A stretch of DNA of 64,000 nucleotides from positions 1,911 to 65,910 of the forward strand of contig JAJXUD010000009.1 in NCBI GenBank assembly GCA_021783235.1. The letters run 5' to 3'. This DNA is from Myxococcales bacterium (GTDB lineage Bacteria; Myxococcota; Myxococcia; Myxococcales; JAKAPL01). Shown here one piece after another: positions 26,701 to 50,790 of this stretch (its first letter is position 1; the number at the start of each line of letters is the position of its first letter). The notes beneath the pieces are model-generated. The model did not search any database, was not told the DNA's origin, and worked only from the letters and a program-made list of their open reading frames with translations. The translations under genes and the position numbers were made by a program.

Positions 26701-26836
26701 GCTCCTCATCTCGCAGCTCCTCACGCTCTACACGACGCCCGTCGTCTACCTCTACATGGAGCGGCTCGCCCGCTGGATCCGCCCGAAGAAGGCGGCCTCG
26801 CAGGGCGCCGCCCCCGGCGACGAGCTCGCCGCCTAG
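23723..26836 (+). CDS. mdtB: RND efflux permease (MdtB-like)
   Basis: SISEPFIRRPVATTLLM N-terminus typical of AcrB/MdtB-family pumps, ~1037 aa. The TTG start overlaps the mdtA stop. Confidence 0.8.
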   Translation: MSISEPFIRRPVATTLLMVGLTLAGLVGYRMLAVSALPQVDYPTIVVATQLPGASAETMASAVTTPLEREFGQMPSLTEMTSVSSFGTSQITLQFNLDRSIDSAEQDVQQAINGAATLLPPTLPAPPNYSKSNPADTPILTLAVSSETLPLDQVDDVADSILAQKISQVSGVGLVTIGGGQKPAVRVQVDPEALAGSGLSLEDVRLAIAAANVDQPKGNLDGPRQDYTLEANDQLYRAESFRPLVIAYRNGSPVRLREVATVLDGVENDQLAGWANGQRAIILSVQRQPGANSIETADRVKALLPRLRTAIPQGIDVTIQNDRTETVRASVLDVQFTLVLTVLLVVLVIFLFLRSVRATIIPGVVVPLSLVCTFGVMYLLGYSLDNLSLMALTISTGFVVDDAIVMIENIERFIEGGTRPFEAALLGAKQIGFTIISLTVSLVAVLIPLLFMGGVIGRLFREFAVTLAVAICISAVLSLTLTATMCAHLLRPKQPEEEGALARLFERGFSAMLAFYERTLRAVMRHQPLTLAATVGTLGLTFWLAWLVPKGFFPQQDTGLLTAVTEAPPDVSFPRLMALQRQVADAVLEDPAVASVASFVGADGTNPTSNSGRLSISLKPREERSPLPELLARLKARLAGIAGIDVYLQAVQDLTVEDRVSRTQYQYTLESASSKDLARWAPLLLAKLEALPELRGVASDQQLSGLELSLDIDRDTAARMGVDPQQIDDVLYDAFGQRQISTIFTQLNQYRVILGVTPELQESSKVLDKLYVRSSTGQPVPLSSFTRRRWGTAPLSINHQGQFPAVTLSFDLAPGHSLGDAVAAIDAARREIGLPPSIRASFQGTAQAFLTSLSSEPILLLAAVVTVYIVLGILYESFIHPVTILSTLPSAGVGAILALLATRTEFSVIALIGIVLLIGIVKKNAIMMIDFAIEAEREERLPPADAIFRACLLRFRPIMMTTLAALFGGIPLAVGTGIGSELRRPLGITIVGGLLISQLLTLYTTPVVYLYMERLARWIRPKKAASQGAAPGDELAA

Positions 26837-26839
26837 GCG

Positions 26840-29800
26840 ATGAACCTCTCGGGCCCCTTCATCCGCCGGCCGGTGGCGACGACGCTGCTCGCGACGGCCA
26901 TCCTGCTCGCGGGCGGCGCGGCCTACTTCTCGCTCCCCATCGCGCCGCTCCCGCGGGTGGACTTCCCCACCGTGGCCGTGGGCGCGGGGCTGCCCGGCGC
27001 GAGCCCCGAGACCATGGCCTCGGCGGTCGCCACCCCGCTCGAGCGCCGCTTCGGCCGGATCGCGGGGCTCGCCGAGCTGACCTCGACGAGCTCGCTCGGC
27101 AACAGCTCGCTCACGCTCCAGTTCGACCTGGCCCGCGACGTCGACGCCGCGGCGCGCGACGTGCAGGCCGCCATCAACGCCGCGGGCGGCGACCTGCCGC
27201 AGAACCTCCCCTTCAAGCCGCGCTTCTCGAAGGTGAACCCGGCCGACACGCCGATCCTGATCCTGGCGCTCAGCTCGGACGCGCTGCCGCTCACCGCCAT
27301 CTACGACGCCGCCGACACCGTCCTCGCCCAGAAGATCGCGCAGGTGGACGGCGTCGGGCAGGTCTTCGTCGGCGGCGGCCAGCAGCCCGCCGTCCGCATC
27401 GAGGTCGATCCCGAGGCGCTCGCGGGCCGGGGGCTGACGCTCGAGGACGTGCGGGCGGTGGTGTCGCGTCAGACCGCGGACCAGCCGAAGGGCTCCCTGC
27501 AGGGGCCGCTGCGTTCGCAGAGCCTCGCGGCGAACGACCAGCTCCTCGTCGCCGACGGCTACCGGCCGATCGTCCTCGGCTACCAGCAGGGGGCGCCCGT
27601 TCGGCTCGGGGACGTGGCGCGGGTCTACGACGACGTCGTCAACGGCCGCACCGCGGGCTGGGTGGACGGCCACCGCTCCATCCCCGTCATCATCCGGCGG
27701 CAGCCGGGCGCCAACATCCTGGAGACCATCGACCGGATCGAGCGGCTCATGCCGCAGCTCGCCTCGTCCGTCCCGCCGTCGATCCGGATGACCATCGCCT
27801 ACGACCACGCGAAGACGATCCGCGCCTCGGTGCACGACGTCGAGGTGACGCTCTTCCTCTCGGTCGTCCTCGTGGTGCTCGTGGTCTTCCTCTTCTTGCG
27901 CAGCGGGCGGGCCACCTCCATCCCGAGCGTGGCGGTGCCGCTCTCGCTCGTCGCCACCTTCGGCGTGATGTACCTGCTCGACTACAGCCTGGACAACCTC
28001 TCGCTGATGGCCCTCACGATCTCCACCGGCTTCGTGGTGGACGACGCCATCGTCGTCACCGAGAACATCGCCCGCTTCATCGAGCTCGGGATGCGCCCCT
28101 TCGAGGCGGCGCTCGAGGGGGCGCGCCAGATCGGCTTCACCATCGTCTCGATCACGGTCTCCTTGCTCGCGGTCTTCGTGCCGATCCTGATGATGGGCGG
28201 CATCGTGGGGCGGCTCTTCCGCGAGTTCGCGGTGACGCTCTCCATCGCGGTGGGCGCCTCGGCGCTCATCTCGCTCACGCTGACGCCCATGATGGCCGCG
28301 CGGCTCCTGCGCCACGAGCCGCCGGGGCAGGCGCGCGGCTTCTTCCGGCTGCTCGAGCGGGGCTTCGAGGGGCTGCTCGCCCTCTACGGCCGGACGCTCG
28401 GCTGGGTCCTGCGCCACCGGCGGTTCATGCTCTTCGTCGCCATCGGCACGGTCGTCTTGACCGTCTGGCTGCTCGGCGCGATCCCGAAGGGGCTCTTCCC
28501 GCAGCAGGACACGGGCTTCCTCATCGGCTTCTCGGAGGCGCCGCAGGACATCTCGTTCCCCGCCATGAAGAAGCGGCAGGAGGCCTTGAACGCCATCATC
28601 GGCGCCGACCCGGACGTGGGCCACTTCGTCTCCTTCATCGGCTCCTTCAACGGCTCGGCGGGCAACGCCGGCACCTTCTTCATCGATCTGAAGGACAAGC
28701 CGCCGCGCAAGGTGACCGCGGACGAGATCATCGCGCGGCTGCGGCCGAAGGTCGCGAAGGTCCCGGGCATCCGGCTCTTCATGCAGTCGATGCAGGACAT
28801 GCGGATCGGCGGCCGGATCGCCCGCACCCAGTACCAGTACACGCTCGAGGACGCCGATCTGAAGGAGCTCGCCCGCTGGGCGCCGAAGGAGCTCGCGAAG
28901 CTGAAGACGCTGCCCGAGCTCAAGGACGTCGCGAGCGACCAGCAGACCGCCGGGCTCGCGCTCGACGTGGACGTGGACCGCGACAGCGCGGGCCGGCTCG
29001 GCGTGCCGATGCGGCTGGTCGACGACACCCTCTACGACGCCTTCGGCCAGCGGCAGATCGCGGTCACCTACACCGAGATGAACCAGTACTGGGTGGTCAT
29101 GGAGGTGGCGCCCGACTTCCAGCGGCCGGAGGCGCTGCGGCAGATCTACGTGCGGGGGCAGGACGGCGGCCTCGTGCCGCTCTCGTCCATCGCGAAGGCG
29201 CGCCCCGACCAGGCCTCGCTCTCCATCAACCACCAGGGGCAGTTCCCGGCGGTGACGCTCTCCTTCAACCTCGCCCCGAAGGTCGCGCTCAGCCAGGCGG
29301 TGGCCGCCATCCACCGGGCCGAGGCGGAGGTCGGGTTGCCGGCCACCATCCACGCGAGCTTCCAGGGGACGGCGCAGGTCTTCCTCTCGTCGCTCTCGAG
29401 CGAGCCGTGGCTCGTGCTCGCCGCGCTGCTCGCGGTCTACATCGTGCTCGGCATGCTCTACGAGAGCTTCATCCACCCGATCACGATCCTCTCCACCCTG
29501 CCGTCGGCCGGCATCGGCGCCTGCCTCGCGCTCCTCGTCTTCCACATGGACTTCAGCGTCATCGCGCTCATCGGCGTCCTCCTCCTCATCGGCATCGTCA
29601 AGAAGAACGCCATCCTCATGATCGACTTCGCCATCGAGCTCGAGCGGGACGAGGGGCTCCCTCCCGAGGAGGCCATCCGGCGCGCCTCGCTCCTGCGCTT
29701 CCGGCCGATCCTCATGACGACGCTCGCCGCCATGCTCGGCGCCCTGCCGCTCGCCGTCGGCCACGGCATCGGCTCGGAGCTGCGCCAGCCGCTCGGCGTC

Positions 29801-29929
29801 ACCATCGTCGGCGGCCTCGCCATCTCGCAGCTCCTCACGCTCTACACGACGCCGGTCATCTACCTCGCGCTCGACCGCTTCACGAGCCGCCGCCGGGCGC
29901 TCGGGAGGCTCCCGGAGGTCGCCGCTTGA
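26840..29929 (+). CDS. mdtC: RND efflux permease (MdtC-like)
   Basis: MNLSGPFIRRPVATTLL N-terminus, 1029 aa. Paralogous to the preceding gene, the arrangement typical of MdtBC heteromeric pumps. Confidence 0.8.
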   Translation: MNLSGPFIRRPVATTLLATAILLAGGAAYFSLPIAPLPRVDFPTVAVGAGLPGASPETMASAVATPLERRFGRIAGLAELTSTSSLGNSSLTLQFDLARDVDAAARDVQAAINAAGGDLPQNLPFKPRFSKVNPADTPILILALSSDALPLTAIYDAADTVLAQKIAQVDGVGQVFVGGGQQPAVRIEVDPEALAGRGLTLEDVRAVVSRQTADQPKGSLQGPLRSQSLAANDQLLVADGYRPIVLGYQQGAPVRLGDVARVYDDVVNGRTAGWVDGHRSIPVIIRRQPGANILETIDRIERLMPQLASSVPPSIRMTIAYDHAKTIRASVHDVEVTLFLSVVLVVLVVFLFLRSGRATSIPSVAVPLSLVATFGVMYLLDYSLDNLSLMALTISTGFVVDDAIVVTENIARFIELGMRPFEAALEGARQIGFTIVSITVSLLAVFVPILMMGGIVGRLFREFAVTLSIAVGASALISLTLTPMMAARLLRHEPPGQARGFFRLLERGFEGLLALYGRTLGWVLRHRRFMLFVAIGTVVLTVWLLGAIPKGLFPQQDTGFLIGFSEAPQDISFPAMKKRQEALNAIIGADPDVGHFVSFIGSFNGSAGNAGTFFIDLKDKPPRKVTADEIIARLRPKVAKVPGIRLFMQSMQDMRIGGRIARTQYQYTLEDADLKELARWAPKELAKLKTLPELKDVASDQQTAGLALDVDVDRDSAGRLGVPMRLVDDTLYDAFGQRQIAVTYTEMNQYWVVMEVAPDFQRPEALRQIYVRGQDGGLVPLSSIAKARPDQASLSINHQGQFPAVTLSFNLAPKVALSQAVAAIHRAEAEVGLPATIHASFQGTAQVFLSSLSSEPWLVLAALLAVYIVLGMLYESFIHPITILSTLPSAGIGACLALLVFHMDFSVIALIGVLLLIGIVKKNAILMIDFAIELERDEGLPPEEAIRRASLLRFRPILMTTLAAMLGALPLAVGHGIGSELRQPLGVTIVGGLAISQLLTLYTTPVIYLALDRFTSRRRALGRLPEVAA

Positions 29930-37465: not shown

Positions 37466-37539
37466 GCGCCCATAGCTCAGCTGGATAGAGCGTCGGGCTT
37501 CGAACCCGAAGGCCGCAGGTTCAAGTCCTGCTGGGCGCG
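37466..37539 (+). tRNA. tRNA-Arg (anticodon TCG)
   Basis: Manual cloverleaf: acceptor GCGCCCA/TGGGCGC, anticodon stem TCGGG/CCCGA, loop CTTCGAA, T-loop TTCAAGT. Confidence 0.9.
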
Positions 37540-37635
37540 CCGAAAAAGAGGGTTGGAGTTCGAGGGGGTTGTACGTCTCTGCCCGATGGTCATTGGCCCC
37601 TCGCCCCCGTCGGGTAGCGGTCTGCCGGGAGGCGC

Positions 37636-39190: not shown

Positions 39191-39286
39191 CCCGCCGCGG
39201 CCTCGGCGATCCGCGCCTCGCCTCGATGCCTCGCCTCGTCGATCGAAGCGTGGCGCGCGTCGGGCCGGGAAGTTAAGCTCGAGGCC

Positions 39287-39898
39287 ATGGCCACGACGCT
39301 CGAACTCTTCTTCGACTACGCCTGACCCTGGTGCTACCTGAGCACGGTCCGTGCTCGACGGCTCATCCAGGCCTACGACCTGGCGCCGCGCCTTCGCGCC
39401 TACCCCTTGCACCCGGAGCTGCCGGTCGGCGGGGTGGCGCTCGCCGACCTCTTCCGGGGGCGCGGCATCGACCTCGGTGCGGCCCACGCCCGCCTGAAGA
39501 GGCTCATGGACGCCGAGGGGCTGCCGTTCGAGCCGCGCGAGCGGACCTACGGCACGCGGCTCGCCCAGGAGCTCGGCAAGTGGGGCGAGCGGCAGGGCAA
39601 GCCCGAGATCCACGACGCGCTCTACCGCGCGGTCTTCGTCGAGGGCGCGGCGGTCGACCGGCCCGAGACGCTCGTCCGGGTCGCCGAAGGGGTGGGCCTC
39701 GACCCGGTCGAGGCCGCCCGGATCCTCGAGGCGCAGAGCCTCTCGGACGAGGTCGACGCCGACTGGAAGCGGGCCCGGGAGCTCGGCGTCACCGGGGTCC
39801 CGACCTTCGTCGCGGGCGGCGAGGCCGTGGTCGGCGCCCAGCCCTACGAGCTGCTCGAAGAGCTCGTCCGCGCGGCGGGCGCGCAGCCGCGCCGCTGA
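39287..39898 (+). CDS. DsbA/FrnE-family thiol oxidoreductase with in-frame TGA at the first redox Cys (candidate selenoprotein, UxxC)
   Basis: ATG 39287 gives MATTLELFFDYA-TGA-PWCYLSTVRARRL.... The TGA (39323-39325) sits exactly where the family has the first Cys of the CPWC motif. The frame stays open to 39898. The C-terminus GVTGVPTFVAGGEAVVGAQPYE is typical of DsbA-FrnE. A SECIS-like hairpin follows the TGA. Confidence 0.7.
39340..39356 (+). promoter_or_regulatory. candidate bacterial SECIS hairpin
   Basis: GAGCACG-GTC-CGTGCTC is a perfect 7-bp stem starting 14 nt after the TGA codon. The apical sequence GGUC(C) begins ~23 nt after the U of UGA, resembling the GGUC apical loop of E. coli fdhF SECIS. 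Confidence 0.55.
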
Positions 39899-39908: not shown

Positions 39909-40112
39909 CTAGTTCGGCGAGGTGCAGCAGATCGGCGTGCCCGCGTCGGCGTTGCAGGTCGGGTACATCGCCTGCATCTCCTGAACGGAGGTCACGGGGG
40001 CGGTCCCCGAGGGGCACTGCGCGCCCTCGGCGACGCAGGCGTTGCAGGTCTTCGGGTTGCACGCCCCGAGCGCCAACAGCGCGACCGCGAATCCAGCGAA
40101 CCAGCTCTTCAT
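39909..40112 (-). CDS. small Cys-rich lipoprotein
   Basis: MKSWFAGFAVALLALGAC lipobox preceded by a GGAGGAGG RBS. There are 7 further Cys in a 49-aa mature part. Confidence 0.55.
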   Translation of the reverse strand: MKSWFAGFAVALLALGACNPKTCNACVAEGAQCPSGTAPVTSVQEMQAMYPTCNADAGTPICCTSPN

Positions 40113-40163: not shown

Positions 40164-40781
40164 TCAACCCGTCGACCTCGCGGGGCGCCAGCCGAAGCCG
40201 ATCGCCCCGATGCCGACGGCCGCGGCGGCCATCGCGAGCCCGGTGACGACGTGGAGCCAGTAGCCGAACGTCACGCGCCGCCGCAGCGACTCGCGGACCG
40301 CCGGGTCGCACTCCGGGTGGGTGAAGCTGATGCCGCCCTCGGCGCCGGGCGGCGCTCCCTTCATGAGCTCCTGGAGCGGGATCTTGGTCCAGCCCGAGAT
40401 CCCGGGCGAGAGGACGTGCCACGGCTCCTTCTGCCCCGACAGGTCGGCCGCCAGGTAGCCCACGAGCGCCGCCGCCGAGAGGACGAAGGTCGCCCATCGC
40501 CGGCGACTCTGGCTCGATCGCTGGCCGGCGGCGGCGCCAAAGGCGATCGCGACGCCGACGCCGGCGACGACGACCCAGTTCGCGAGGGTGTGGAGGCGGC
40601 GAACCCGGGCGTCGTGGAGGGCCCGGTCGATCGAGATCTGGAGGCTCTGATCGCAGAAGGTCCCCGGGCGAACGTCCTTCATCAGGAGCAGTCCGCTGAC
40701 GGTCGCCGGGAGCGCCGCGCCGGCAATGGCGAGCCCGAGAAGCGGCCCGAGCCAGAAGGGGGCCTTCGCCTTCAGATCCAC
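40164..40781 (-). CDS. membrane protein of unknown function
   Basis: 205 aa with ~4 hydrophobic segments. Overlaps the stop of the P-II-like gene by 10 nt, so it is probably co-transcribed with the RND operon. Confidence 0.55.
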   Translation of the reverse strand: MDLKAKAPFWLGPLLGLAIAGAALPATVSGLLLMKDVRPGTFCDQSLQISIDRALHDARVRRLHTLANWVVVAGVGVAIAFGAAAGQRSSQSRRRWATFVLSAAALVGYLAADLSGQKEPWHVLSPGISGWTKIPLQELMKGAPPGAEGGISFTHPECDPAVRESLRRRVTFGYWLHVVTGLAMAAAAVGIGAIGFGWRPARSTG

Positions 40782-41059
40782 TGCTCGGTGCTCCAGGCGA
40801 AGGCGCGCAGCACCTGGTGGGGGCTCGTGCCCTGGATCTCGTCGAGGGCGGCGTGGACCTGCTCGGCCTTCAGCTCGTCGACGCCGACGAGCAGCGCGCA
40901 GTTGAGGCCCGGGAAGGCGCTGGTGTTGGCGTGCGACCGGCTCTCCCCCCGTCCGAGCACCTTCGGGATGAGCGTGTAGGTCTTCGCCCCCGCGCCCTCG
41001 AGCGCGCGGGTCACCATCGAGACGTCGACCTCGTCGCAGATGATCAGGATGAGCTTCAT
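40772..41059 (-). CDS. P-II-like small protein (nitrogen-regulatory P-II superfamily fold suggested)
   Basis: 95 aa. MKLILIICDEVDVSMVTRALEGAGAKTYTLIPKVLGRGE matches the beta-alpha-beta start and T-loop-like region of P-II-like proteins. Confidence 0.5.
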   Translation of the reverse strand: MKLILIICDEVDVSMVTRALEGAGAKTYTLIPKVLGRGESRSHANTSAFPGLNCALLVGVDELKAEQVHAALDEIQGTSPHQVLRAFAWSTEQWI

Positions 41060-41072
41060 GACGTCACCGCCT

Positions 41073-42509
41073 TCACTGTTGAATCGGGCTGCTGATCGCG
41101 AGATCGAGGAACGCCCTCGCCCGCCCGGCCTGGTACCTCGAGCGGACGTCCTGGTCCTCGGCCGAGACCGCGGTCGCCTGGGCGATGATGAGGTCGAGGA
41201 TGGAGCCGAGGCCGTTGTTGTAGCGTCCCTCCACGACGTGAAGCTGCTCCTCGGCCGCCTGCTGGTTCGCGTCCGCGGCGGCGACGGCCTCGAGCGCCGA
41301 CTTGAAGTCGACGAACGCCTCGCGGACCTGCTCGATGATCTTGAGCTTCAGCTCCTCCTGCTGCTGGACGACCTCCGAGAGCTTGGCCTGGGCCTCGCGC
41401 GCCTGGTGAGTCGTCAAGTAGCCCTCGAAGATCGGGATCGCGAGGACGGCGCCGATGTCCCAGTCGGGCACCGCGGAGATGGAGGTCGGCAGCCCCGGGT
41501 CGACGCCGGTCACCTCGATGCTGGCCTGCCCCCAGAGGCGGGGCAAGAACTCGGAGTTCACCTCCGCGACGGTGGCGTCCGACTGGCGGCGGCGGGCCTC
41601 GAGCTCCGCGTAGTCGGGTCGCTGGTGGTAGGCGAGGTCGAGGAGCGCCTCCTCCGTCTGGGGGATGTCGGCGGGGACCTCGCGGGGCGCGACGTCGATG
41701 TGCCGGCCGTGCTCTTCGCCGATCGCCTCGAGGAGCCGGACCCTCCCGATGCGAACCTCTGCCACGGCGCGCACGAGCTGGAGCTCGGCCTTCGTCACGT
41801 CCGCCTTCGCCTGGAGCTCGTCGACCGGCGGACGCAGGCCGTCCTTGACGGCCTCGTGCGCCCAGGTGAAGTGCTCCTTCGCCTCGGCGAGCATCTTCTC
41901 GGCGGTGACGTTCAGGGCCTTGCCGGCGAGGAGGCCGTAGTAGGCGCTGCGGATCTGGTAGAGCACCGCCTCGGCCACCACCGACTGGTCGGCGGTGGCG
42001 GCGTCGAGGCCGGCCTCGGCGACCCGCAGGCCGTTCGCCCGCCGGCCGAAGTCGTAGATGTCGTACTGGGCGACGACCGCGCCGGTGTAGCTGTCGTTCG
42101 AGCCCCAGGAGAGCGGAGGCTCCTGGAAGCCCGAGAGCTGGCCCGCCGGGACCCGGGTCCCGTCGACCGAGGAGTAGCCGCCGATGCTCGGGAACCAGGG
42201 GACGGAGAGGAAGGTCGAGACGCTGTTGTTGTAGGTCGCCCGGACGTACTCGGCGTAGGCGTTGACGGTCGGGAGGTAGGGCGCGAACGCCTCGCCCTTG
42301 CGCTCCTTCGCGGCCCTCGTCGCCTCGATGGACGCCTTGATCCGCGGCTGGTTCGCGAGGCCGATCTTCTCGAGCTCCTCGAGCGTGTAGAGGTGGCCCG
42401 CCTGCAGCGTGGGCGGGCCCGGCGTCTCCTCGGCCGACAGCGGCATCGCGACCGCGAGCAGCGGACAGGCCAACAGGGCTGCCATCCTCGGAAAGTTCCG
42501 TGAGGTCAT
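41073..42509 (-). CDS. TolC-family outer membrane efflux protein
   Basis: 478 aa with a signal peptide and two repeated alpha-helical/beta halves typical of OEP proteins. Overlaps the RND gene stop by 4 nt. Confidence 0.8.
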   Translation of the reverse strand: MTSRNFPRMAALLACPLLAVAMPLSAEETPGPPTLQAGHLYTLEELEKIGLANQPRIKASIEATRAAKERKGEAFAPYLPTVNAYAEYVRATYNNSVSTFLSVPWFPSIGGYSSVDGTRVPAGQLSGFQEPPLSWGSNDSYTGAVVAQYDIYDFGRRANGLRVAEAGLDAATADQSVVAEAVLYQIRSAYYGLLAGKALNVTAEKMLAEAKEHFTWAHEAVKDGLRPPVDELQAKADVTKAELQLVRAVAEVRIGRVRLLEAIGEEHGRHIDVAPREVPADIPQTEEALLDLAYHQRPDYAELEARRRQSDATVAEVNSEFLPRLWGQASIEVTGVDPGLPTSISAVPDWDIGAVLAIPIFEGYLTTHQAREAQAKLSEVVQQQEELKLKIIEQVREAFVDFKSALEAVAAADANQQAAEEQLHVVEGRYNNGLGSILDLIIAQATAVSAEDQDVRSRYQAGRARAFLDLAISSPIQQ

Positions 42510-45500
42510 TCATCCGCTCCTGCGGGGCTCGCCGACCCTTCGGGGGGGAGCTCGAAGCTCGTGTCCCGCAGGATGGGGTCGAGCTCGACCGGCTTCTCGT
42601 ACTTCGCCGTCAGCTCGTACATCGCGGGCACGACGAAGAGGGTGAGGAACGTCGAGACGGAGAGGCCGCCGATGACCGCGCGGGCGAGCGGCATGTTCGC
42701 CTCGCTGCCGACCTCGAGGCCGAGCGCCACCGGCATCAGTCCGGCGACGGTCGCGATGGCGGTCATGACGATGGGGCGCAGCCGCGTGCGGCCGGCCTTC
42801 ACGACGGCCTCGTGGACTCCGAGCCCCCGCTCGCGCAGCACCTTCGCGAAGTCCACGAGCAAGACCGAGTTCGAGACCACGATGCCGACCATCATGATGA
42901 TGCCCATGAAGGATTCGATGTTGAAGGTCGTGTGGCTCGCCCAGAGGGTGATGAAGACTCCGGTGAGGCCGAGCGGGACCGCCAGCATGATGACGAGCGG
43001 CGAGAGGAGCGATTTGAACTGCGACGCCATGAGCATGTAGATGAACATGAGCGCCATGGCGAGCATCCCGCCGAGGCCGCCGAAGGTCTGCTTCTGCTGC
43101 CGGACCTGAGCGCCGTAGCGGAGCTCGAAGCCCTTCGGCAGGTGGATCTTCTCGGCGAAGGCCTTGCGCAGCTCCGCGGTGACGTCGCCGAGGTCGCGCC
43201 CGACGTTGTTCGCCGAGATGTAGATCACCCGCTCGAGGTAGCGCCGCTCGATCTGGATGGGGCCCTCGCTCCGGCGAATCTTCGCCATGTTGGCGAGGTA
43301 GAGCGCCTGGCCGTTCTTCTGGTTCGTGACGAAGGTCTGGCGGAGGTCGTTGATGTGGCTTCGCCAGGGGTCGTCGTACTGGGTGACGAGGTAGTAGGCG
43401 TTCCCTGTCTTGGGATCCACCCAGACGCCGGGGGTGTTGATGTTCCCGTTCGACATGTCGAGGAGCGCCTGGGCGACCTGGCTCTCGGAGAAGCCCATCA
43501 TGGCCGACTTGGTCCGGTCGATGTCGACGTCGAACTCGGGGTAGTCGTCCTCCCGGCTGATCCGGACGTCCTTGAGCCCGGGGGTGTGCCGCATGATGTA
43601 GCCGATCTCCTCGGCGTACTTGTGGCCGATCTCGAAGTCGTCGCCGACGAGCTCCATCGTGATCGGCGCCATCGCGCCGAAGTTCATGACGCCGCTCACG
43701 AGGCCGCCCGGCTGGAAGGTGAACTGAACGCCCGGGAAGGCGTCGTGGAGCGGCTTGCGGAGCATGGCGACGACCTGGGCCTGGGTCACCTCGCGCTTGT
43801 CGGGATCGCTGAGGCCGATCTGGACGAAGCCCGAGTGCGGGCCGGTGTTGACGGCGTAGATCGCCGCGCGGCCCTGCACGGGGATGCCGATGTTCGACAG
43901 CAGCATCTCGAGCGCGTTCTTCGGGAGGACCTCGCGGATCTTGTCCTCGATCTTCCCGAAGATCTTGTCGGCCTCCTCGATTCGGGTCCCGATGGGGGTC
44001 CGGACGTTCAAGGTGATCGTGCTCTCGTCGGTCGAGGGGAAGAACTCGGAGCCGATGAACGGGATGAGGAAGCACGAGGCGACGAAGCCGCCGAAGACCA
44101 CGGTCAGGATCATCCCGCGCCGCGCGAGGACCCACTCGAGGGTGCCCTCGTACTTCTCGTCGAGCCAGTGGAGCATCCGCTCGCAGTGGTAGAAGAAGCG
44201 CGGGAAGAACCAGGGGGAGCTGGCCGTGTAGGGGTCGTGCCTGCGCAAGAACGTCATGCAAGCGACGGGGGTGACGAGCTGGCTGACCGCGTAGGAGGCG
44301 AGCATCGAGAACGAGACGGCGAGCGCCAGCGGGGTGAAGAGCTTCTTCGCCATGCCCTCGAGGAAGATGACGGGGACGAAGACCGCGATGGTGGTCAGGG
44401 TCGAGATGAGGACGGCGAGCGCGACCTCCTGCCGGCCCTTGAGCGCCGCCTCCGCCGGTCGCTCGCCCTCCTCGAGGTGGCGGTTGATGTTCTCGGTGTC
44501 GACGACCGAGTCGTCCACGAGGCGCCCGAGCGCGAGCGTCAGCCCGCCGAGCGTGAAGTTGTTGATGGTGTTCCCCGTGAAGTAGAGGACCACCATGGCG
44601 GCGGCCATGGAGAGGGGGACGGCGATCGAGACGATGAGCGTGCTGCGCCAGCTCTGCAGGAAGAGCAGGATCACGAGGATGACGAGCAGAAGCCCCTGGA
44701 CCACCTCGTGCTCGAGCCCCGCGATGGCCTCGCGGATGAACTTCGACTGGTCGAACACGACGTGGAGCTCGAGGCCGGGGGGAAGGCCGACGAGGTGCGG
44801 GATGGCCGCCTTGACCTCGTCCACGATGGCGATCGTGTTTCCGCCCGGCTGCTTGAGGACGTTCAGGTAGACGGCGTACTTGCTGTTCGCCCGGACGATC
44901 TGGGTCTGGATGGCGAAGCCGTCCTCGGCGCGCCCGATGTCCTGGAGCCGGACCGGCGTCCCCGTCTTCTCGTTGTACTTGACGACGATGCCGTTCAGCT
45001 CGGTGGCGGCGTCCACGAGCGCGTTCGAGTAGAGGTTGTAGTCGATCTTCCCGATCTTGATGTCGCCCGCGGGCATCATCAAGTTTGCCTGGTTCGCGAT
45101 CCGCGAGAGCGAGAGCACGTCGACGCCCGCGGCCATGGCGCGGGGCCGGTTGACGAAGACGTTGATCTGCCGGACCTTGCCGCCGTTGACGGTGGCCGAG
45201 GCGACGCCGGCGAGGTGCTCGATCTGCGGCTCGATCGTGTTGAACGAGAGGTCGTAGAGCTGGGTCTGGTCGAGGCCGCCGCCCGAGACGGTGATGAGGC
45301 AGACCGGCTGGTTCGAGATGTCGTACTGGACGACGAAGGGAGGCAAGACGCCGAGCGATTTGGGCACGGCGGCCATGGCCATCTGGAGCTGGGCCATGAC
45401 CATGACCTCGCCGCCGGCGATGTCGGCCCCCCAGTTGAAGACGATCTGGATGATCGAGAGGCCGACCCGCGAGGTCGACTGGACGTAGCTCACGTCCGGG

Positions 45501-45715
45501 ACCGAGCTGATGTACTTCTCGAAGCGGTAGGTGATCGTCTTCTCGACGTCGCGGACGCTGAGGCCCGGGATCAGGGTCCCGACGAGCACGGCGGGGATCC
45601 CGAGGTTCGGGAAGAGATCGACCGGCATCCGCCGGACCGTGAGGTTGCCGAGCACCATCACGGCGATGCAGCACATCAAGATGGCGATTGGGTTTCGGAG
45701 CGCGAACCTGGTCAT
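42506..45715 (-). CDS. RND efflux permease (AcrB/CzcA superfamily)
   Basis: 1069 aa. N-terminus MTRFALRNPIAILMCCIAVMVLG...FPNLGIPAV. 12-TM architecture with two large periplasmic loops. Confidence 0.85.
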   Translation of the reverse strand: MTRFALRNPIAILMCCIAVMVLGNLTVRRMPVDLFPNLGIPAVLVGTLIPGLSVRDVEKTITYRFEKYISSVPDVSYVQSTSRVGLSIIQIVFNWGADIAGGEVMVMAQLQMAMAAVPKSLGVLPPFVVQYDISNQPVCLITVSGGGLDQTQLYDLSFNTIEPQIEHLAGVASATVNGGKVRQINVFVNRPRAMAAGVDVLSLSRIANQANLMMPAGDIKIGKIDYNLYSNALVDAATELNGIVVKYNEKTGTPVRLQDIGRAEDGFAIQTQIVRANSKYAVYLNVLKQPGGNTIAIVDEVKAAIPHLVGLPPGLELHVVFDQSKFIREAIAGLEHEVVQGLLLVILVILLFLQSWRSTLIVSIAVPLSMAAAMVVLYFTGNTINNFTLGGLTLALGRLVDDSVVDTENINRHLEEGERPAEAALKGRQEVALAVLISTLTTIAVFVPVIFLEGMAKKLFTPLALAVSFSMLASYAVSQLVTPVACMTFLRRHDPYTASSPWFFPRFFYHCERMLHWLDEKYEGTLEWVLARRGMILTVVFGGFVASCFLIPFIGSEFFPSTDESTITLNVRTPIGTRIEEADKIFGKIEDKIREVLPKNALEMLLSNIGIPVQGRAAIYAVNTGPHSGFVQIGLSDPDKREVTQAQVVAMLRKPLHDAFPGVQFTFQPGGLVSGVMNFGAMAPITMELVGDDFEIGHKYAEEIGYIMRHTPGLKDVRISREDDYPEFDVDIDRTKSAMMGFSESQVAQALLDMSNGNINTPGVWVDPKTGNAYYLVTQYDDPWRSHINDLRQTFVTNQKNGQALYLANMAKIRRSEGPIQIERRYLERVIYISANNVGRDLGDVTAELRKAFAEKIHLPKGFELRYGAQVRQQKQTFGGLGGMLAMALMFIYMLMASQFKSLLSPLVIMLAVPLGLTGVFITLWASHTTFNIESFMGIIMMVGIVVSNSVLLVDFAKVLRERGLGVHEAVVKAGRTRLRPIVMTAIATVAGLMPVALGLEVGSEANMPLARAVIGGLSVSTFLTLFVVPAMYELTAKYEKPVELDPILRDTSFELPPEGSASPAGADE

Positions 45716-45757
45716 CGTCGAAGAGGTCTCCGGTGCTGCCGGTGGTGGGGCCGCGAA

Positions 45758-46891
45758 TCAGTCGCTGATGGCTTTGCTGAGCGAGAAGTGCAGCGCCGTC
45801 GGCACCGGCTTCACGCGCTCCCCGAGCTTCACGAGGTCCCGCCCCGCGATCACGATGTCCTGGCTCGGATCGAGGCCGCTCGTGACCTGGACGAAGCGGC
45901 CGAGGTCGTAGCCGAGCTCCACGGGGGCCCGCTCCATCCGGCCGTCCTTCACGGGGAAGACCGCCGCGCCGCGCGTGGAGGTCGCGAGGGCGGTGTCCGG
46001 GACGAGGATCGCCCCCTTGATGTGGCCGACGACCACCCGGACGTTCGCGTACATGCCGGATCGCAGCCCGCCGTCCTTGTTCGGGATGTCGGCCTCGAGG
46101 CGCATCGTCCGGGTGTCCGGGGCGACGGCCTGCGCGATGTAGGTGACGGTGCCCGGGAAGACCCGGGTCGGGAAGGCGTCGACCTGGATCTCCACCTCCT
46201 GGCCGATCTTCACGAGCGGGATGTCGTGCTCGATGACGTCGATGAAGACGCGCAAGGTGTCGATCTTCTGGACCAAGGCGACCGGGGGCCCCTGGGGCGA
46301 GATGTACTGGCCCGGGTCGAGCAGACGGTCGGTCGTGTAGCCGGTGAAGGGCGCCCGGATGTCGCAGAAGTCGAGGTAGACCTTCGCGAGGTTCTGCTGG
46401 TCCCTCGCGTGCTTGAGCTTCGCCTGCGCGACCTCGAGGGCGGTCTCCTGGTTGTCGAAGTCCTGCTGCGCGATCAGCTTGGACTTCAGCATCATCCCGT
46501 AGCGCTCGACGAGGAGCTCGTGGTTGTGCACCTCGGCGCTCGCCTCGGCGAGCTGCTCGCGGGCCTCCTCGAGCTTCTGGATGTAGGGCGACTTGTCGAT
46601 CGAGGCGAGGATCTGCCCCTTCTGGACGAACTGGCCGTTCTCGAAGTCGACGCTCGTCAGGTAGCCCGAGACGTCCTCCGGCACGGCGCGCTCCTGGAAG
46701 ATCGCCTGGACGTTCGCCGTGTACTGCAAGGAGATTGGGATGTCGGCCACCACCGGCTTCGCCACCTGGACCTGGGGGATCTCGCTCGTCTCCGCGCCCT
46801 TCGCCTCCTCGCCACCGTGGCAGCCGGTGAAGAAGGCGAGGGCGACGGCGAGCGTCGCGAAGAGGCGAATGGGGCTGAGAGAAGGGACCAT
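45758..46891 (-). CDS. RND efflux periplasmic adaptor (HlyD/MFP family) lipoprotein
   Basis: MVPSLSPIRLFATLAVALAFFTGC lipobox, GAGGAG RBS, biotinyl-lipoyl-like and beta-barrel segments. Confidence 0.8.
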   Translation of the reverse strand: MVPSLSPIRLFATLAVALAFFTGCHGGEEAKGAETSEIPQVQVAKPVVADIPISLQYTANVQAIFQERAVPEDVSGYLTSVDFENGQFVQKGQILASIDKSPYIQKLEEAREQLAEASAEVHNHELLVERYGMMLKSKLIAQQDFDNQETALEVAQAKLKHARDQQNLAKVYLDFCDIRAPFTGYTTDRLLDPGQYISPQGPPVALVQKIDTLRVFIDVIEHDIPLVKIGQEVEIQVDAFPTRVFPGTVTYIAQAVAPDTRTMRLEADIPNKDGGLRSGMYANVRVVVGHIKGAILVPDTALATSTRGAAVFPVKDGRMERAPVELGYDLGRFVQVTSGLDPSQDIVIAGRDLVKLGERVKPVPTALHFSLSKAISD

Positions 46892-47012
46892 CGGGGCAAC
46901 TCCTCGGGCTCGGGTGAGCCGTCGATCGGAAACGACGAAGGAAAGGAGACGAATGTGAGGGGTCGACATTCAACCGGCGGCGGAGACTCACCGGCCGCGA
47001 GGGGCCGGCGGC

Positions 47013-47407: not shown

Positions 47408-49072
47408 TCAACCGGGGATGTCGCGCCGCTTGAAGCGCGCCCCGAGCGCCTCGCCCACCCGGAAGCTGTTCGCCATGATCGTCAGCGTCGGCGGCACGCC
47501 GCCGGGGTTCGGCATGAAGCTGCCGTCGACCACGTAGAGGTTGTCGACCTCGTGGGCGCGGCACTCGCGGTCGAGGACCGAGGCCTTGGGATCGGCGCCG
47601 AACCGGCAGGTGCCGTACTGGAGGATCATCGACTCGCCGAAGCCCCAGGGCGACCAGGTCTCGTCGGGCTCGAGCGCCTTCAATATCTCCATCCCCCGGT
47701 CGTGCAGCGCCTCCGCGGCCGCGATGTCGTGCGGGTGGTGGGCGGTGGTGATGCGCGCCGAGGGGATGCCCCAGCGGTCGCGCACCTCGGGGTCGATCGT
47801 GACGTGCATGTCGGGGTTCGGCAGGCTCTCGCAGAAGCTCTCGAACGAGATCGTCACCGAATCGCGGATCCGCTCGCGCAGCCGGTTCTTGAGGCCGAGG
47901 CCGAAGGTGAGGTCGCCCTTGCCGCTGATCGCCTGGATCTCGGCGCCCGCGATCGGGTTCTCGTGGGCGAAGAGGAAGGAGAGCGTGCCGCCCTTCGGCA
48001 CGTCCTTCGTCGGCCAGAAGTAGAAGTCCTGCACGCAGCGGTGGATGAACGGCTCGGTGCTCGACATCCACGGTCGCTCGGCGATCCGCTTGTGGCGGTC
48101 GAACCGGGCGAAGCCGTCGCGGTGGTTCGAGAAGGTGAGGTTCCGCCCGACCTGGCCCGAGCGGTTCGCGAGCCCGTCCGGGAAGAGCGACGATCGCGAG
48201 TTCAAGAGGAGGCGGGCCGACTCGATCGCGCTGCACGAGACGACGACGACCCGCCCGCGCGCCCGCTGCTCGCGCCCCTGGCCGTCGAAGTAGAGGACGC
48301 CCTTCGCCCGCCCGCGCGAGTCGACCTCGACCGAGTAGGCCATCGAGTTGGGCCTGATCTCGCAGCGGCCGGTCGCCTCGGCGGCCGGCAGGACGCTCGC
48401 GGCGCTGCTCCCCTTGGCGCCGGTCTCGCAGCCGTAGCTGCCGCAGAGCGCGCAATAGCTGCAGATGCCGCGGTCGCCCATGGGGCGGGTCAGGATGGCG
48501 CGCGGCAGCGGAAACGCGTGCCAGCCGAGCCGCCCGCAGGCGCGGTCGATCTCCTTCGAGATCGGATGCTCGTCGAGCGGCGGGAATGGGAACGGGCCCG
48601 AGCGCGGCTCCTCGAACGGGTTGACGCCCGCCTTCCCGGAGACGCCGACGACGCGCTCCACCCGGTCGTAGTACGGGGCGAGCTCGGCGTACGAGATGGG
48701 CCAGTCCGCGACGCTGGTGCCGTCGACGGGGCCGATCTCCGAGCGCAGCCGGAAGTCCTCGGGCTTGAGCCGCAGGAAGAAGCCGCTCATGTGGACCGTG
48801 CCGCCGCCGACGCAGTTCGCGATCCAGCCCTGGCGGCTGCGGACGGGCTTGCCGCCCGGGTAGGCGAGCACGTGCGGCTCGTCCTCCTCGAACGGGACGA
48901 ACATGTTCTCGCGGCAGACCGCGAGCTCGTCGTGGACGAGCTCCTTCTTCTCGAGCCGCCTCCCCTTCTCGAGCACGAGCACCCGCGCCCCCGCGTGGGA
49001 CAGCTCGTAGGCGAGCGGGCCGCCGCCCGCGCCGCTCCCCACCAGCACCACGTCGTAGAGATCGTCGGCCAA
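47408..49072 (-). CDS. GMC-family FAD oxidoreductase (gluconate 2-dehydrogenase flavoprotein-like)
   Basis: N-terminal FAD motif DVVLVGSGAGGGPLAYEL and C-terminal GMC region (HEVDNLYVVDGSFMP). Confidence 0.85.
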   Translation of the reverse strand: MADDLYDVVLVGSGAGGGPLAYELSHAGARVLVLEKGRRLEKKELVHDELAVCRENMFVPFEEDEPHVLAYPGGKPVRSRQGWIANCVGGGTVHMSGFFLRLKPEDFRLRSEIGPVDGTSVADWPISYAELAPYYDRVERVVGVSGKAGVNPFEEPRSGPFPFPPLDEHPISKEIDRACGRLGWHAFPLPRAILTRPMGDRGICSYCALCGSYGCETGAKGSSAASVLPAAEATGRCEIRPNSMAYSVEVDSRGRAKGVLYFDGQGREQRARGRVVVVSCSAIESARLLLNSRSSLFPDGLANRSGQVGRNLTFSNHRDGFARFDRHKRIAERPWMSSTEPFIHRCVQDFYFWPTKDVPKGGTLSFLFAHENPIAGAEIQAISGKGDLTFGLGLKNRLRERIRDSVTISFESFCESLPNPDMHVTIDPEVRDRWGIPSARITTAHHPHDIAAAEALHDRGMEILKALEPDETWSPWGFGESMILQYGTCRFGADPKASVLDRECRAHEVDNLYVVDGSFMPNPGGVPPTLTIMANSFRVGEALGARFKRRDIPG

Positions 49073-49075
49073 GGC

Positions 49076-49621
49076 TCACTCGCAGCGGGGGTTGGGACAG
49101 GGGGCGTCGAAGCCGACGAGCTTCCAGCCGGCGCGGTCGCGGTTGCCGCCGTAGACCGGATCGGCGAAGGCGCCCTCGAGGGTGAGCAGGACGAGCTGCC
49201 GGACGGTGGCGTAGGCCTTGTCTCCCCCTTCGGCCGCGAACGACGCCATCGCCACGTCCTGGTCGCCGGGCTTCAGATCGACGAAGTGGCGCCCGTGCCG
49301 CTTCCAGGCCCAGTCGGAGAGGGCGTGGAGCCCCCGCCGGAGCCGGGCCGCCGAGCGGCCCGCGCGCTTGCCGGGGCGGGCGAGGCGGCGGTCGATGAAG
49401 TCGACGACGCCGAGCTCCTTCGCGCCGGGCTCCTCGTCCTTCGGCAGGACGCGCTCGCAGGCCGCGGCGCAGAGCGCGAGCTCCTCGCCCGAGAGCGACT
49501 TGCCCGCGGGGCCGAAGTCACGGGGCGGCGGGTGGTCGGGCCTGCGGCAGCCGACGGCGAGGCCGCCGCTCGCGGCGGCCGCGAGCCCGAGGAAGCGTCG
49601 GCGCGTCAGGGAGGAGGGCAT
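49076..49621 (-). CDS. gluconate 2-dehydrogenase subunit-3-like small subunit with Tat signal
   Basis: Twin-arginine signal TRRRFLGLAAAASGG, 181 aa, immediately upstream of the GMC flavoprotein gene. Confidence 0.7.
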   Translation of the reverse strand: MPSSLTRRRFLGLAAAASGGLAVGCRRPDHPPPRDFGPAGKSLSGEELALCAAACERVLPKDEEPGAKELGVVDFIDRRLARPGKRAGRSAARLRRGLHALSDWAWKRHGRHFVDLKPGDQDVAMASFAAEGGDKAYATVRQLVLLTLEGAFADPVYGGNRDRAGWKLVGFDAPCPNPRCE

Positions 49622-49642
49622 CGATGGGGTCTTACCGGACCC

Positions 49643-50701: not shown

Positions 50702-50790
50702 TCGGGGCGTGAATGTACGGGCGCCATCGAGCGTCGGTCAATCGTGTAAGGGGATGGATCGGCCGGCCAGGCCGCGATAGGAGTAAAGCC

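What the first reader, a model, noticed from the sequence alone, without database searches (positions are those of the whole stretch)
39287..39898. In-frame TGA replaces the active-site Cys of a DsbA/FrnE-like oxidoreductase and is followed by a SECIS-like hairpin: candidate selenoprotein
From ATG 39287 the frame reads MATTLELFFDYA-[TGA]-PWCYLSTV..., with no further stop until 39898. In the DsbA-FrnE family this position is the first Cys of the CPWC redox motif, so the gene encodes U-P-W-C if TGA is decoded as selenocysteine.

Fourteen nt after the TGA there is a perfect hairpin, GAGCACG-GUC-CGUGCUC. Its apex contains GGUC, like the E. coli fdhF SECIS loop, and sits ~23 nt from the UGA, which is within the usual bacterial SECIS window.

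Standard gene callers would truncate this gene at 39407 or call it a pseudogene.
Basis: partly seen in the sequence, partly recalled or inferred. Interest (0 to 1): 0.7.

Follow-up and report, generated by a model that had tools for sequence, protein, structure and literature searches.

The report
Known-family DsbA-like selenoprotein gene
This is a real but ordinary selenoprotein gene: a cytoplasmic DsbA/FrnE-type thiol-disulfide oxidoreductase whose first active-site cysteine is replaced by UGA-encoded selenocysteine, from a family described in 2005 and routinely mis-called as a truncated gene.

Summary
ATG 39287 to stop 39896-39898 is one 203-codon DsbA/FrnE-type gene (Pfam PF01323, E 1e-34, domain starts at residue 4). 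Its codon 13, TGA 39323-39325, sits where homologues and the solved FrnE and SCO1869 structures have the first Cys of CPWC.

The TGA is neither a sequencing error nor decay. The same 120 nt occur in seven other assemblies of this species. At least 115 distinct orthologues carry TGA at this codon with open frames on both sides; the seven from named genomes are labelled Polyangiaceae, Deltaproteobacteria, Binatia, Chloroflexi and Acidobacteria.

The downstream hairpin meets all four constraints of the published bacterial SECIS model. Across the family its helices are kept by compensatory changes (88% paired, against 41% or less in slid controls). Nine Cys-type homologues lack it.

The gene therefore belongs to the "DsbA-like protein (form 1), UxxC" selenoprotein family, already reported in Anaeromyxobacter. 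This copy comes from an uncultured Myxococcota MAG, where public pipelines call it as a 163-aa fragment.

Not tested: selA, selB, selC and selD in this genome. None lies among the 20 window ORFs scanned. Interest is low: a correct call on a known kind.

The parts
39287..39898 (+). Full coding sequence of the DsbA/FrnE-like selenoprotein: 203 codons, Sec at codon 13, own stop TGA 39896-39898.
   Evidence: Translation. Pfam PF01323 E 9.7e-35 covers residues 4-193. PDB FrnE and SCO1869 match residues 5-196.
39323..39325 (+). In-frame UGA read as selenocysteine (U13), in place of the first Cys of the U-P-W-C redox motif (motif 39323-39334).
   Evidence: The same codon is TGA in 7 of 11 genome loci and TGT/TGC in the other 4. 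It is TGA in 115 distinct full-length orthologues. It aligns to the first Cys of CPWC in 3GL5 and 5CP1.
39333..39362 (+). SECIS element. Lower helix 39333-39335 with 39360-39362. Upper helix 39339-39346 with 39350-39357. Apical loop G-U-C at 39347-39349, with the conserved G at 39347.
   Evidence: Folds. Family covariation: upper helix 89% paired, 6 of 7 pairs with two-sided changes; lower helix 84% paired; G25 in 111 of 115 sequences. Leave-out covariance model scores 47.6 bits, E 4.5e-19.
39407..39898 (+). The truncated 163-aa ORF (TTG start) that automatic gene callers report instead of the full gene. An annotation artefact, not a separate feature.
   Evidence: ORF list. The exact 163-aa product is in public collections from 24 contigs, including NCBI MAGs GCA_027417845.1 and GCA_027417905.1.
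39791..39808 (+). T-G-V-P-T-F segment (residues 169-174). T169, G170, V171 and P172 are invariant in the family. Inferred to be the cis-Pro loop facing the UxxC site.
   Evidence: Invariant columns in alignment A3. Aligned to GITGVPFF of FrnE. The cis-Pro role is inferred from general knowledge of thioredoxin-fold proteins and was not tested.

Best explanation
The gene encodes a cytoplasmic DsbA/FrnE-type thiol-disulfide oxidoreductase. Residue 13 is selenocysteine, giving a U-P-W-C redox centre that cycles between selenol/thiol and a selenenylsulfide.

During translation the hairpin that starts 8-14 nt after the UGA acts as a bacterial SECIS. SelB carrying Sec-tRNA(Sec) binds the apical loop (G39347, U39348) and delivers Sec to the UGA in the A site. 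The ribosome therefore continues for 190 more codons instead of terminating.

Shown here:
- the intact frame;
- the Cys/Sec alignment;
- conservation of the UGA in the family;
- the fit to the SECIS model and the covariation.

Inferred:
- that this organism has selA, selB, selC and selD;
- that Se is actually inserted;
- the enzyme's substrates. By analogy with D. radiodurans FrnE these would be reduction or isomerisation of protein disulfides under oxidative or metal stress.
For: (1) Domain. Pfam DSBA covers residues 4-193, so the 12 codons before the UGA belong to the fold.

(2) Cys/Sec pairing. U13 aligns with the first Cys of CPWC in Cys-type homologues and in the solved structures 3GL5 and 5CNW/5CP1.

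(3) Conservation of the UGA. TGA sits at the same codon in 7 of 11 genome loci, labelled Polyangiaceae, Deltaproteobacteria, Binatia, Promineifilaceae, Chloroflexia and Acidobacteria. Nearly all of these have an ATG 10-18 codons upstream and 180-200 open codons downstream.

(4) Translation upstream of the UGA. Codons -8 to -4 show codon-periodic variability, with entropy 1.02, 0.65 and 1.68 at positions 1, 2 and 3.

(5) Fit to the SECIS model. The constraints published in PMC13188914 Fig. 2A are a 3-9 nt loop, a 4-16 bp stem, G followed by G/U at the start of the loop, 16-37 nt from UGA to loop, and MFE of -7.5 kcal/mol or lower. The window element has loop GUC, an 8-bp stem, 21 nt spacing and -10.7 to -11.1 kcal/mol.

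(6) Covariation over 115 sequences. 87.6% of cells are paired, against 28-41% when the partner is slid. The covariation score is 0.407 against 0.223 shuffled, with 0 of 500 shuffles as high. Pair 19-33 is AU 67 / GC 34. Pair 21-31 is UA 68 / CG 26 / GC 9. The wobble base of the Cys16 codon covaries with column 39: CG 50 / UA 17 / UG 10.

(7) Cys-form control. Nine Cys-type homologues average 4.0 of 7 pairs in that register, against 6.2 of 7 in the Sec forms.

(8) Not a sequencing error. Seven other assemblies of the same species carry the identical 120-nt ATG-TGA-hairpin segment.

(9) TGA is a normal stop here. It ends most Pfam-verified genes in the window, including this one, so a TGA-sense genetic code is excluded.

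(10) Prior literature. The family is a published selenoprotein family: DsbA-like, COG2761/PF01323, UxxC.
Against: No selA, selB, selD or tRNA-Sec was found in the 64-kb window, and the rest of the genome could not be examined.

No Rfam family matches 39280-39420, even at E up to 10.

Single-sequence folding of 43-63 nt is not significantly more stable than shuffles.

The family covariance model also scores Cys-type homologues at 17-42 bits, against 47.6 for the window. Much of its score is therefore coding homology rather than structure.

No experimental evidence of Se incorporation exists for this gene.
Confidence: 0.9

Rival explanations
1. UGA13 is recoded through the same hairpin and SelB, but the inserted residue is cysteine (or another amino acid). 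This could happen with a non-canonical tRNA(Cys) that SelB accepts, or under selenium limitation. The mature protein would then be an ordinary CPWC enzyme.
For: Recoding of Sec-UGA by Cys with a non-canonical tRNA(Cys) and SelB has been described: Vargas-Rodriguez et al. 2018, cited in the reference list of PMC8762117. Nothing in the sequence distinguishes which aminoacyl-tRNA SelB delivers. The tRNA set of this genome is unknown, because only 4 tRNAs lie in the window.
Against: There is no positive evidence for such a tRNA here. The family is classed as a Sec family in the literature. Keeping a UGA plus SECIS merely to insert Cys would be costly when a single TGA-to-TGC change gives the same product, as in many homologues.
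Confidence: 0.04
2. The gene is a pseudogene or a decaying copy. A nonsense mutation hit the active-site Cys codon (TGC/TGT to TGA) and the hairpin is a coincidence of GC-rich DNA.
For: TGC-to-TGA is a single-base change. Hairpins of this quality follow 1.2% of all TGA triplets in the window. No Sec machinery is seen in the window.
Against: The rest of the frame is intact for 190 codons. The same TGA is present in at least 115 distinct orthologues, those from named genomes spanning several phyla, all with open frames on both sides. The hairpin is maintained by compensatory changes. The closest relatives (59-69% identity) are predominantly N-truncated calls, the two checked being TGA forms.
Confidence: 0.02
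3. Translation really terminates at 39325 or starts downstream (TTG 39407, as annotated). The functional product would be a 163-aa C-terminal fragment without the redox motif.
For: This is what every automatic annotation of the gene reports.
Against: The fragment would lack strand beta-1 and the active-site helix of the thioredoxin fold (Pfam profile positions 1 to about 40). The region between the upstream ATG and 39407 is conserved as protein in the same frame, with codon-periodic variability. The truncated starts differ arbitrarily between orthologues.
Confidence: 0.02

Closest known systems
DsbA-like selenoprotein, form 1 (PF01323 / COG2761, UxxC). Zhang, Fomenko and Gladyshev 2005 (PMC1088965). 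Listed for Anaeromyxobacter dehalogenans, Desulfovibrio desulfuricans and Desulfotomaculum reducens in PMC1794560. Reviewed in PMC13188914.
   Same: Same Pfam domain. Same UxxC motif with Sec replacing the first Cys. A SECIS hairpin with a G in a small apical loop immediately downstream of the UGA. Already found in a high-GC myxobacterium.
   Different: Nothing essential differs. This copy is from an uncultured Myxococcota lineage; its ABC-F marker is at most 69% identical to any cultured genus among the named hits. It is not annotated as a selenoprotein in the public assemblies.
FrnE of Deinococcus radiodurans (DR_0659; PDB 5CNW, 5CP1) and SCO1869 of Streptomyces coelicolor (PDB 3GL5): cytoplasmic DsbA-family disulfide oxidoreductases.
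   Same: Homologous over the whole domain (E 7e-17 and 8e-18). A CPWC-type motif at the same place. No signal peptide. TGVP loop conserved. drFrnE has disulfide isomerase and insulin-reductase activity and contributes to cadmium, diamide and oxidative stress tolerance (PMC8945050).
   Different: Sec replaces the first Cys. The protein ends at residue 203 with only one Cys (C16). It therefore lacks the C-terminal CxxxxC tail that regenerates drFrnE, as do S. roseofulvus and D. maricopensis FrnE. Recycling must work differently.
Escherichia coli fdhF SECIS, the reference bacterial SECIS bound by SelB.
   Same: A hairpin inside the coding sequence just 3' of the UGA. The apical loop presents G then U (G39347, U39348, which are positions 25 and 26 counted from the U of UGA). 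My recollection, not checked here, is that the E. coli loop is GGUC with G23 and U24 essential. The general mechanism is cited from PMC10778597.
   Different: No bulged U in the upper stem. The loop is 3 nt in this copy and usually 5 nt (C-G-U/G-G-C) in the family. The stem sequence is different, and there is a 3-bp lower helix that uses the Cys16 and Tyr17 codons. No Rfam model matches.
Other thioredoxin-fold UxxC selenoproteins of bacteria (Trx, Grx, Prx-like and DsbG-like; PMC1088965, table of redox motifs).
   Same: The same logic: Sec replaces the N-terminal, nucleophilic Cys of CxxC in a thioredoxin fold.
   Different: A different subfamily, since the DsbA type has an inserted helical domain. 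The neighbouring Prx-like selenoprotein seen in locus L014 uses TxxU instead.

Membership tests
Bacterial selenoprotein gene (SECIS/SelB-dependent UGA recoding) | In-frame UGA aligned with a catalytic Cys of homologues (Cys/Sec pair) | tested here: met
   TGA aligns with TGT/TGC of CPWC in L001, L005 and L135-L139, and with the first Cys in 3GL5 and 5CP1.
Bacterial selenoprotein gene (SECIS/SelB-dependent UGA recoding) | TGA-containing orthologues in other organisms with intact frames on both sides | tested here: met
   7 genome loci and about 120 metagenome contigs, giving 115 distinct sequences.
Bacterial selenoprotein gene (SECIS/SelB-dependent UGA recoding) | Downstream stem-loop meeting the bSECIS model: 3-9 nt loop, 4-16 bp stem, G in the first two loop positions, 16-37 nt from UGA, MFE of -7.5 kcal/mol or lower | tested here: met
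   Model quoted from PMC13188914. Window element: loop GUC, 8 bp, 21 nt spacing, -10.7 to -11.1 kcal/mol.
Bacterial selenoprotein gene (SECIS/SelB-dependent UGA recoding) | Structure conserved by compensatory changes, and absent from Cys-type homologues | tested here: met
   87.6% paired against 41% or less when slid; 0 of 500 shuffles as high. Cys forms have 4.0 of 7 pairs (n = 9) against 6.2 of 7. Caveat: the covariance model does not separate Cys forms cleanly.
Bacterial selenoprotein gene (SECIS/SelB-dependent UGA recoding) | selA, selB, selC (tRNA-Sec) and selD present in the same genome | not testable with these tools
   Only 64 kb is available. No tRNA-Sec was found and no sel gene among the 20 ORFs scanned.
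Bacterial selenoprotein gene (SECIS/SelB-dependent UGA recoding) | Selenium demonstrated in the protein (75Se labelling or mass spectrometry) | not testable with these tools
   Requires an experiment.
DsbA-like selenoprotein form 1 (PF01323, UxxC) | DSBA-like thioredoxin domain PF01323 | tested here: met
   E 9.7e-35, profile positions 1-189 of 191.
DsbA-like selenoprotein form 1 (PF01323, UxxC) | UxxC motif at the CxxC position | tested here: met
   U13-P-W-C16.
FrnE subfamily of DsbA (cytoplasmic; cd03024 as described in PMC8945050) | No signal peptide or membrane anchor; domain starts at the N-terminus | tested here: met
   Only 3 residues precede profile position 1. Orthologues likewise start 10-18 residues before U. 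No dedicated signal-peptide predictor was run.
FrnE subfamily of DsbA (cytoplasmic; cd03024 as described in PMC8945050) | CP(W/F)C active site | tested here: met
   U-P-W-C, with Sec in place of the first Cys.
FrnE subfamily of DsbA (cytoplasmic; cd03024 as described in PMC8945050) | C-terminal CxxxxC regeneration motif (present in many but not all members) | tested here: not met
   The protein has a single Cys (C16) and ends at residue 203. According to PMC8945050, some FrnE proteins also lack this motif.
Rfam RNA families (any, including any SECIS models) | Match to a curated covariance model | tested here: not met
   no match on 39280-39420 at E up to 10; none at gathering score. My understanding, not checked, is that Rfam's bacterial SECIS models are lineage- or gene-specific.

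The most novel reading that the evidence does not exclude
In this uncultured myxobacterium the UGA-plus-SECIS might not be used for selenocysteine at all. SelB would deliver a non-canonical tRNA(Cys), or Sec and Cys would be inserted conditionally according to selenium supply. The gene would then be a natural example of SECIS-directed Cys recoding in a new lineage.
Probability: 0.03. Interest if true: 0.55.

Novelty: new member of a known kind. Interest (0 to 1): 0.2.

Why it matters
The main value is for annotation.

The gene is recorded in public MAGs and protein catalogues as a 163-aa fragment without its active site. In addition, 43 of the 120 best database hits are N-terminally truncated in the same way; both that were checked at the DNA level carry the TGA. 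Correcting such calls changes the inferred redox toolkit and the selenium dependence of soil and sediment bacteria.

The family alignment also gives a clean, covariation-supported SECIS consensus for this family:

UGA-CCN-UGG-UGY-UAY, then a 7-8 bp stem, loop (C)G(U/G)G(C), and a 3-bp lower helix.

This consensus could seed a dedicated RNA model. No Rfam family matched the window's element.

It does not open a new biological question. Sec-for-Cys replacement in DsbA-like proteins has been known since 2005.

Tried and rejected
- Rfam. No SECIS or other family matched over the element at gathering score or at E up to 10. This is uninformative rather than negative.

- Single-sequence folding of 43-63 nt. 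z = -0.5 to -1.2, not significant in 73% GC DNA. Only the 19-nt hairpin stands out (z = -4.0).

- Covariance model built without the window sequence. The window element is the only strong hit in 64 kb (47.6 bits; the next is 15.5). However, Cys-type homologues reach 41.7 bits, so the model mainly reads coding homology. I do not use it as evidence for structure.

- Search for Sec machinery. No tRNA-Sec by ARAGORN or Rfam, and no SelA, SelB or SelD domains in 20 window ORFs. ARAGORN on all 139 fetched loci found no tRNA at all, so that run says nothing. A contig walk from the ABC-F gene only returned a shorter contig of a sister MAG.

- Other selenoprotein candidates in the window. Sixteen TGAs have high-GC3 open frames on both sides. 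All but 39323 are off-frame or antisense artefacts, or true gene ends. The same-frame junctions at 45758, 49076 and 49643 (- strand) separate independent genes with their own starts or Tat signal. The junction at 40164 is two stops followed by a separate small lipoprotein gene with its own RBS.

- Structure prediction. The tool refuses the Cys-substituted sequence and the stop-containing translation. The fold assignment therefore rests on the Pfam and PDB sequence matches.

- TGA-sense genetic code. Rejected, because TGA terminates most verified genes here.

Full report
**1. The observation**

From ATG 39287 the frame reads MATTLELFFDYA-TGA-PWCYLSTV..., with no other stop until TGA 39896-39898. 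The in-frame TGA is at 39323-39325.

Fourteen nt later lies GAGCACG-GUC-CGUGCUC (39340-39356). RNAfold adds a U-G pair (39339 with 39357). In the 43-nt fold it also adds a 3-bp lower helix, 39333-39335 with 39360-39362.

The 19-nt hairpin is stable at -10.7 kcal/mol, z = -4.0. Longer stretches are not unusual for this 72.9% GC DNA (z -0.5 to -1.2). A perfect hairpin of 7 bp or more at this distance follows 1.2% of all TGA triplets in the window (11 of 898). On the window alone the hairpin is therefore only suggestive.

**2. The protein**

With Cys placed at codon 13, the product matches Pfam DSBA (PF01323) at E 9.7e-35. Residues 4-193 cover profile positions 1-189 of 191. The 12 codons upstream of the TGA are therefore part of the thioredoxin fold, not a leader.

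The closest solved structures are SCO1869 (3GL5, E 7.6e-18) and Deinococcus radiodurans FrnE (5CNW/5CP1, E 6.6e-17). In both alignments residue 13 faces the first Cys of A-C-P-W-C-Y.

The protein has no N-terminal extension and only one Cys (C16). It ends at residue 203, so it lacks the C-terminal CxxxxC tail of drFrnE.

**3. Relatives**

*Protein search.* A search of 5.8 billion sequences splits the best 120 hits into two groups. Full-length CPWC proteins are 50-60% identical. Forty-three hits are closer (59-69%, one at 98%) but N-terminally truncated, at 156-185 aa.

The truncated ones begin at arbitrary points after the active site. The two that I fetched as DNA have TGA at the Cys position (P0001 = L012/L013 and P0011 = L014).

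*Genome scan.* A scan of one genome per species returned 11 loci. Seven have in-frame TGA at the same codon: Polyangiaceae, a deltaproteobacterium, Binatia, two Promineifilaceae, Chloroflexia and Acidobacteria. Four have TGT or TGC.

Nearly all show an ATG 10-18 codons upstream and 180-200 open codons downstream. This gives 115 distinct UGA-plus-48-nt sequences.

*Coding signal upstream.* In codons -8 to -4, which the search pattern does not constrain, variability is codon-periodic: entropy 1.02, 0.65 and 1.68 at positions 1, 2 and 3. That region is therefore translated in this frame.

This rules out a pseudogene and a downstream start.

**4. Not an assembly error**

The exact 163-aa truncated product of this window is on 24 public contigs, including NCBI MAGs GCA_027417845.1 and GCA_027417905.1 and several SRA runs. 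Seven fetched copies carry the identical 120-nt ATG-TGA-hairpin segment.

One copy (L013) has a 1-nt insertion immediately 5' of the ATG. This fits the ATG being the start.

**5. The hairpin as a SECIS**

The 115 sequences align without gaps (A1), and the hairpin sits in one register. The figures below are unless another call is given.

| Feature | Columns (from U of UGA) | Result |
|---|---|---|
| Upper helix | 17-23 with 29-35 | 89.1% of cells paired; 6 of 7 pairs with two-sided changes |
| Lower helix | 11-13 with 38-40 | 84.1% of cells paired |
| Apical loop | 24-28 | G25 in 111 of 115; column 26 is U (62) or G (43) |
| Whole structure | | 87.6% paired, against 28-41% when the 3' partner is slid by 1-3 columns |
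| Covariation score | | 0.407 against 0.223 shuffled; 0 of 500 shuffles as high |

- **Compensatory pairs.** Pair 19-33 is AU 67 / GC 34, pair 21-31 is UA 68 / CG 26 / GC 9, and pair 22-30 is AU 77 / CG 13 / GC 7.
- **Lower helix.** The synonymous wobble base of the Cys16 codon covaries with column 39 (CG 50, UA 17, UG 10).
- **First trial structure.** The 9-pair version gave the same picture.
- **Synonymous sites.** Variability is depressed inside the hairpin: entropy 0.59-1.39 in codons +5 to +10, against 1.35-1.95 in codons +13 to +20.
- **Cys-form control.** Nine Cys-type homologues average 4.0 of 7 pairs in this register, against 6.2 of 7 for the Sec forms. 99 of the 115 Sec forms have at least 6.

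The published bacterial SECIS model (PMC13188914 Fig. 2A) requires a 3-9 nt loop, a 4-16 bp stem, G then G/U at the start of the loop, 16-37 nt between UGA and loop, and MFE of -7.5 kcal/mol or lower. The window element has loop G-U-C, 8 bp, 21 nt spacing and -10.7 to -11.1 kcal/mol. All four constraints are met.

**6. What did not help**

Rfam has no match at any threshold.

I built a covariance model from 48 family members without the window sequence. It finds 39323-39370 as the only strong hit in the window (47.6 bits, E 4.5e-19; the next is 15.5 bits). It also scores Cys forms at 17-42 bits, so it mostly reflects coding homology.

**7. Sec machinery and organism**

The window holds tRNA-Pro, two tRNA-Arg, tRNA-His and a tmRNA, but no tRNA-Sec. 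Twenty ORFs scanned against Pfam show no SelA, SelB or SelD. No other in-frame TGA in the window looks coding.

TGA is the usual stop codon here, including for this gene. A TGA-sense genetic code is therefore excluded.

The organism is an uncultured member of Myxococcota. Its ABC-F protein is 85% identical to a "Deltaproteobacteria bacterium" MAG, 75% to a "Myxococcales bacterium", and 67-69% to Hyalangium, Anaeromyxobacter and Vulgatibacter.

The rest of the genome could not be reached. Presence of selABCD is therefore inferred, not shown. Anaeromyxobacter dehalogenans, in the same phylum, is a documented Sec user with a DsbA-like selenoprotein (PMC1794560).

**8. Mechanism**

*Shown:* an intact 203-codon frame with UGA at the nucleophilic position of a UxxC redox motif, followed by a conserved, covarying SECIS.

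*Inferred from established knowledge* (PMC10778597):
- SelB binds the SECIS apical loop and delivers Sec to the UGA.
- The enzyme then cycles between selenol/thiol and selenenylsulfide.

By analogy with drFrnE, it would reduce or isomerise cytoplasmic protein disulfides under oxidative or metal stress (disulfide isomerase and insulin reductase activity; mutants sensitive to cadmium, diamide and oxidants; PMC8945050). Without the CxxxxC tail, recycling must use another route.

**9. Comparison and novelty**

"DsbA-like protein" (COG2761, UxxC) was reported as a selenoprotein family from the Sargasso Sea in 2005, with 9 sequences (PMC1088965). It was listed in Anaeromyxobacter, Desulfovibrio and Desulfotomaculum in 2006. 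A 2026 review tabulates it as "DsbA-like protein form 1, PF01323, UxxC".

The window gene meets every sequence-level criterion of that family. It is a new member of a known kind.

The practical points are the systematic mis-annotation and a well-supported family-specific SECIS consensus.

**10. Verdict**

- Observation: confirmed.
- Interpretation: supported, confidence about 0.9. The residual doubt is the unverified Sec machinery and the identity of the inserted residue.
- Interest: 0.2.

Noticed in passing
L014:11345-11902 (- strand); the DsbA-like orthologue is at L014:9926-10534: A Prx/BCP-like (AhpC-TSA) gene lies 1.1 kb downstream of the DsbA-like orthologue. It is called as a 71-aa fragment but has an in-frame TGA at the peroxidatic-Cys position (..FYVLAFTDT-U-SSQLKAY..). 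The frame stays open for 115 more codons and a strong hairpin follows the TGA. It is probably a second selenoprotein (TxxU peroxiredoxin type) in that organism.
   Followed up: partly
Protein search; window 39407-39898: 43 of the 120 best database hits are N-terminally truncated calls (73-88% coverage, 156-185 aa). They are closer to the query than any full-length Cys form. The window's own gene is stored as a 163-aa fragment from 24 contigs. This looks like systematic mis-annotation of the selenoprotein family; the two truncated hits checked at DNA level both carry the TGA.
   Followed up: yes
Alignment of 113 orthologues, codons +5 to +10 after the UGA (window 39338-39355): Third-position variability is depressed inside the SECIS stem (entropy 0.59-1.39, against 1.35-1.95 in codons +13 to +20). 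The encoded residues (L-S-T-V/G-R-I/V-E) change together with the stem. The RNA structure appears to constrain the sequence of the active-site helix.
   Followed up: partly
L136:549-596 and L138:543-590: Two Cys-type homologues still resemble the SECIS. L136 keeps 6 of 7 pairs in the register, and the two score 33 and 42 bits with the family model. These are possibly recent Sec-to-Cys conversions.
   Followed up: no
window 11392-22402 (- strand): Two very large multidomain genes. One is KS-AT-DH-PPTase. The other is NMO (enoyl-reductase-like)-KS-AT-ACP-KR. They resemble a polyunsaturated-fatty-acid or polyketide synthase cluster. They are flanked by alpha/beta hydrolase genes and followed at 22412-29929 (+) by two AcrB-type RND pumps.
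   Followed up: no
window 40772-46969 (- strand): Downstream of the selenoprotein gene and on the opposite strand lie a P-II-like 95-aa gene and a three-gene efflux set: outer-membrane factor 41073-42509, RND pump 42506-45715 and a membrane-fusion-like protein 45758-46969. There are also a 205-aa membrane protein (40164-40781) and a small Cys-rich lipoprotein-like gene (39909-40112) convergent with the DsbA-like gene. No link to the selenoprotein was tested.
   Followed up: no
window 47408-50737 (- strand): Three consecutive genes lie in the same reading frame, each separated by a single TGA (at 49643-49645 and 49076-49078). By eye the products look like a di-haem cytochrome c peroxidase-like protein, a Tat-signal protein and a GMC-type flavoprotein. 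They looked like read-through candidates, but each has its own start. The family names were not checked with Pfam.
   Followed up: partly
window 5492-5510 (+ strand): The hairpin UCGAGGCCGUGCGCCUCGA mimics the family's SECIS upper stem and CGUGC loop (15.5 bits). It lies antisense to the ABC-F gene, and the match does not extend to the UGA-CCN-UGG part of the model. Taken as chance.
   Followed up: no
window 57382-57746 and 4090-4461: A tmRNA with tag ANDNVELALAA, and a cluster of tRNA-Pro(TGG), tRNA-Arg(TCT) and tRNA-His(GTG). A further tRNA-Arg(TCG) lies at 37466-37541, 1.8 kb upstream of the selenoprotein gene.
   Followed up: no
L013:~476 (aligned to window 39286/39287): One assembly of the same species has a 1-nt insertion (an extra A) immediately 5' of the ATG start and is otherwise identical. 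This is consistent with 39287 being the true start.
   Followed up: yes
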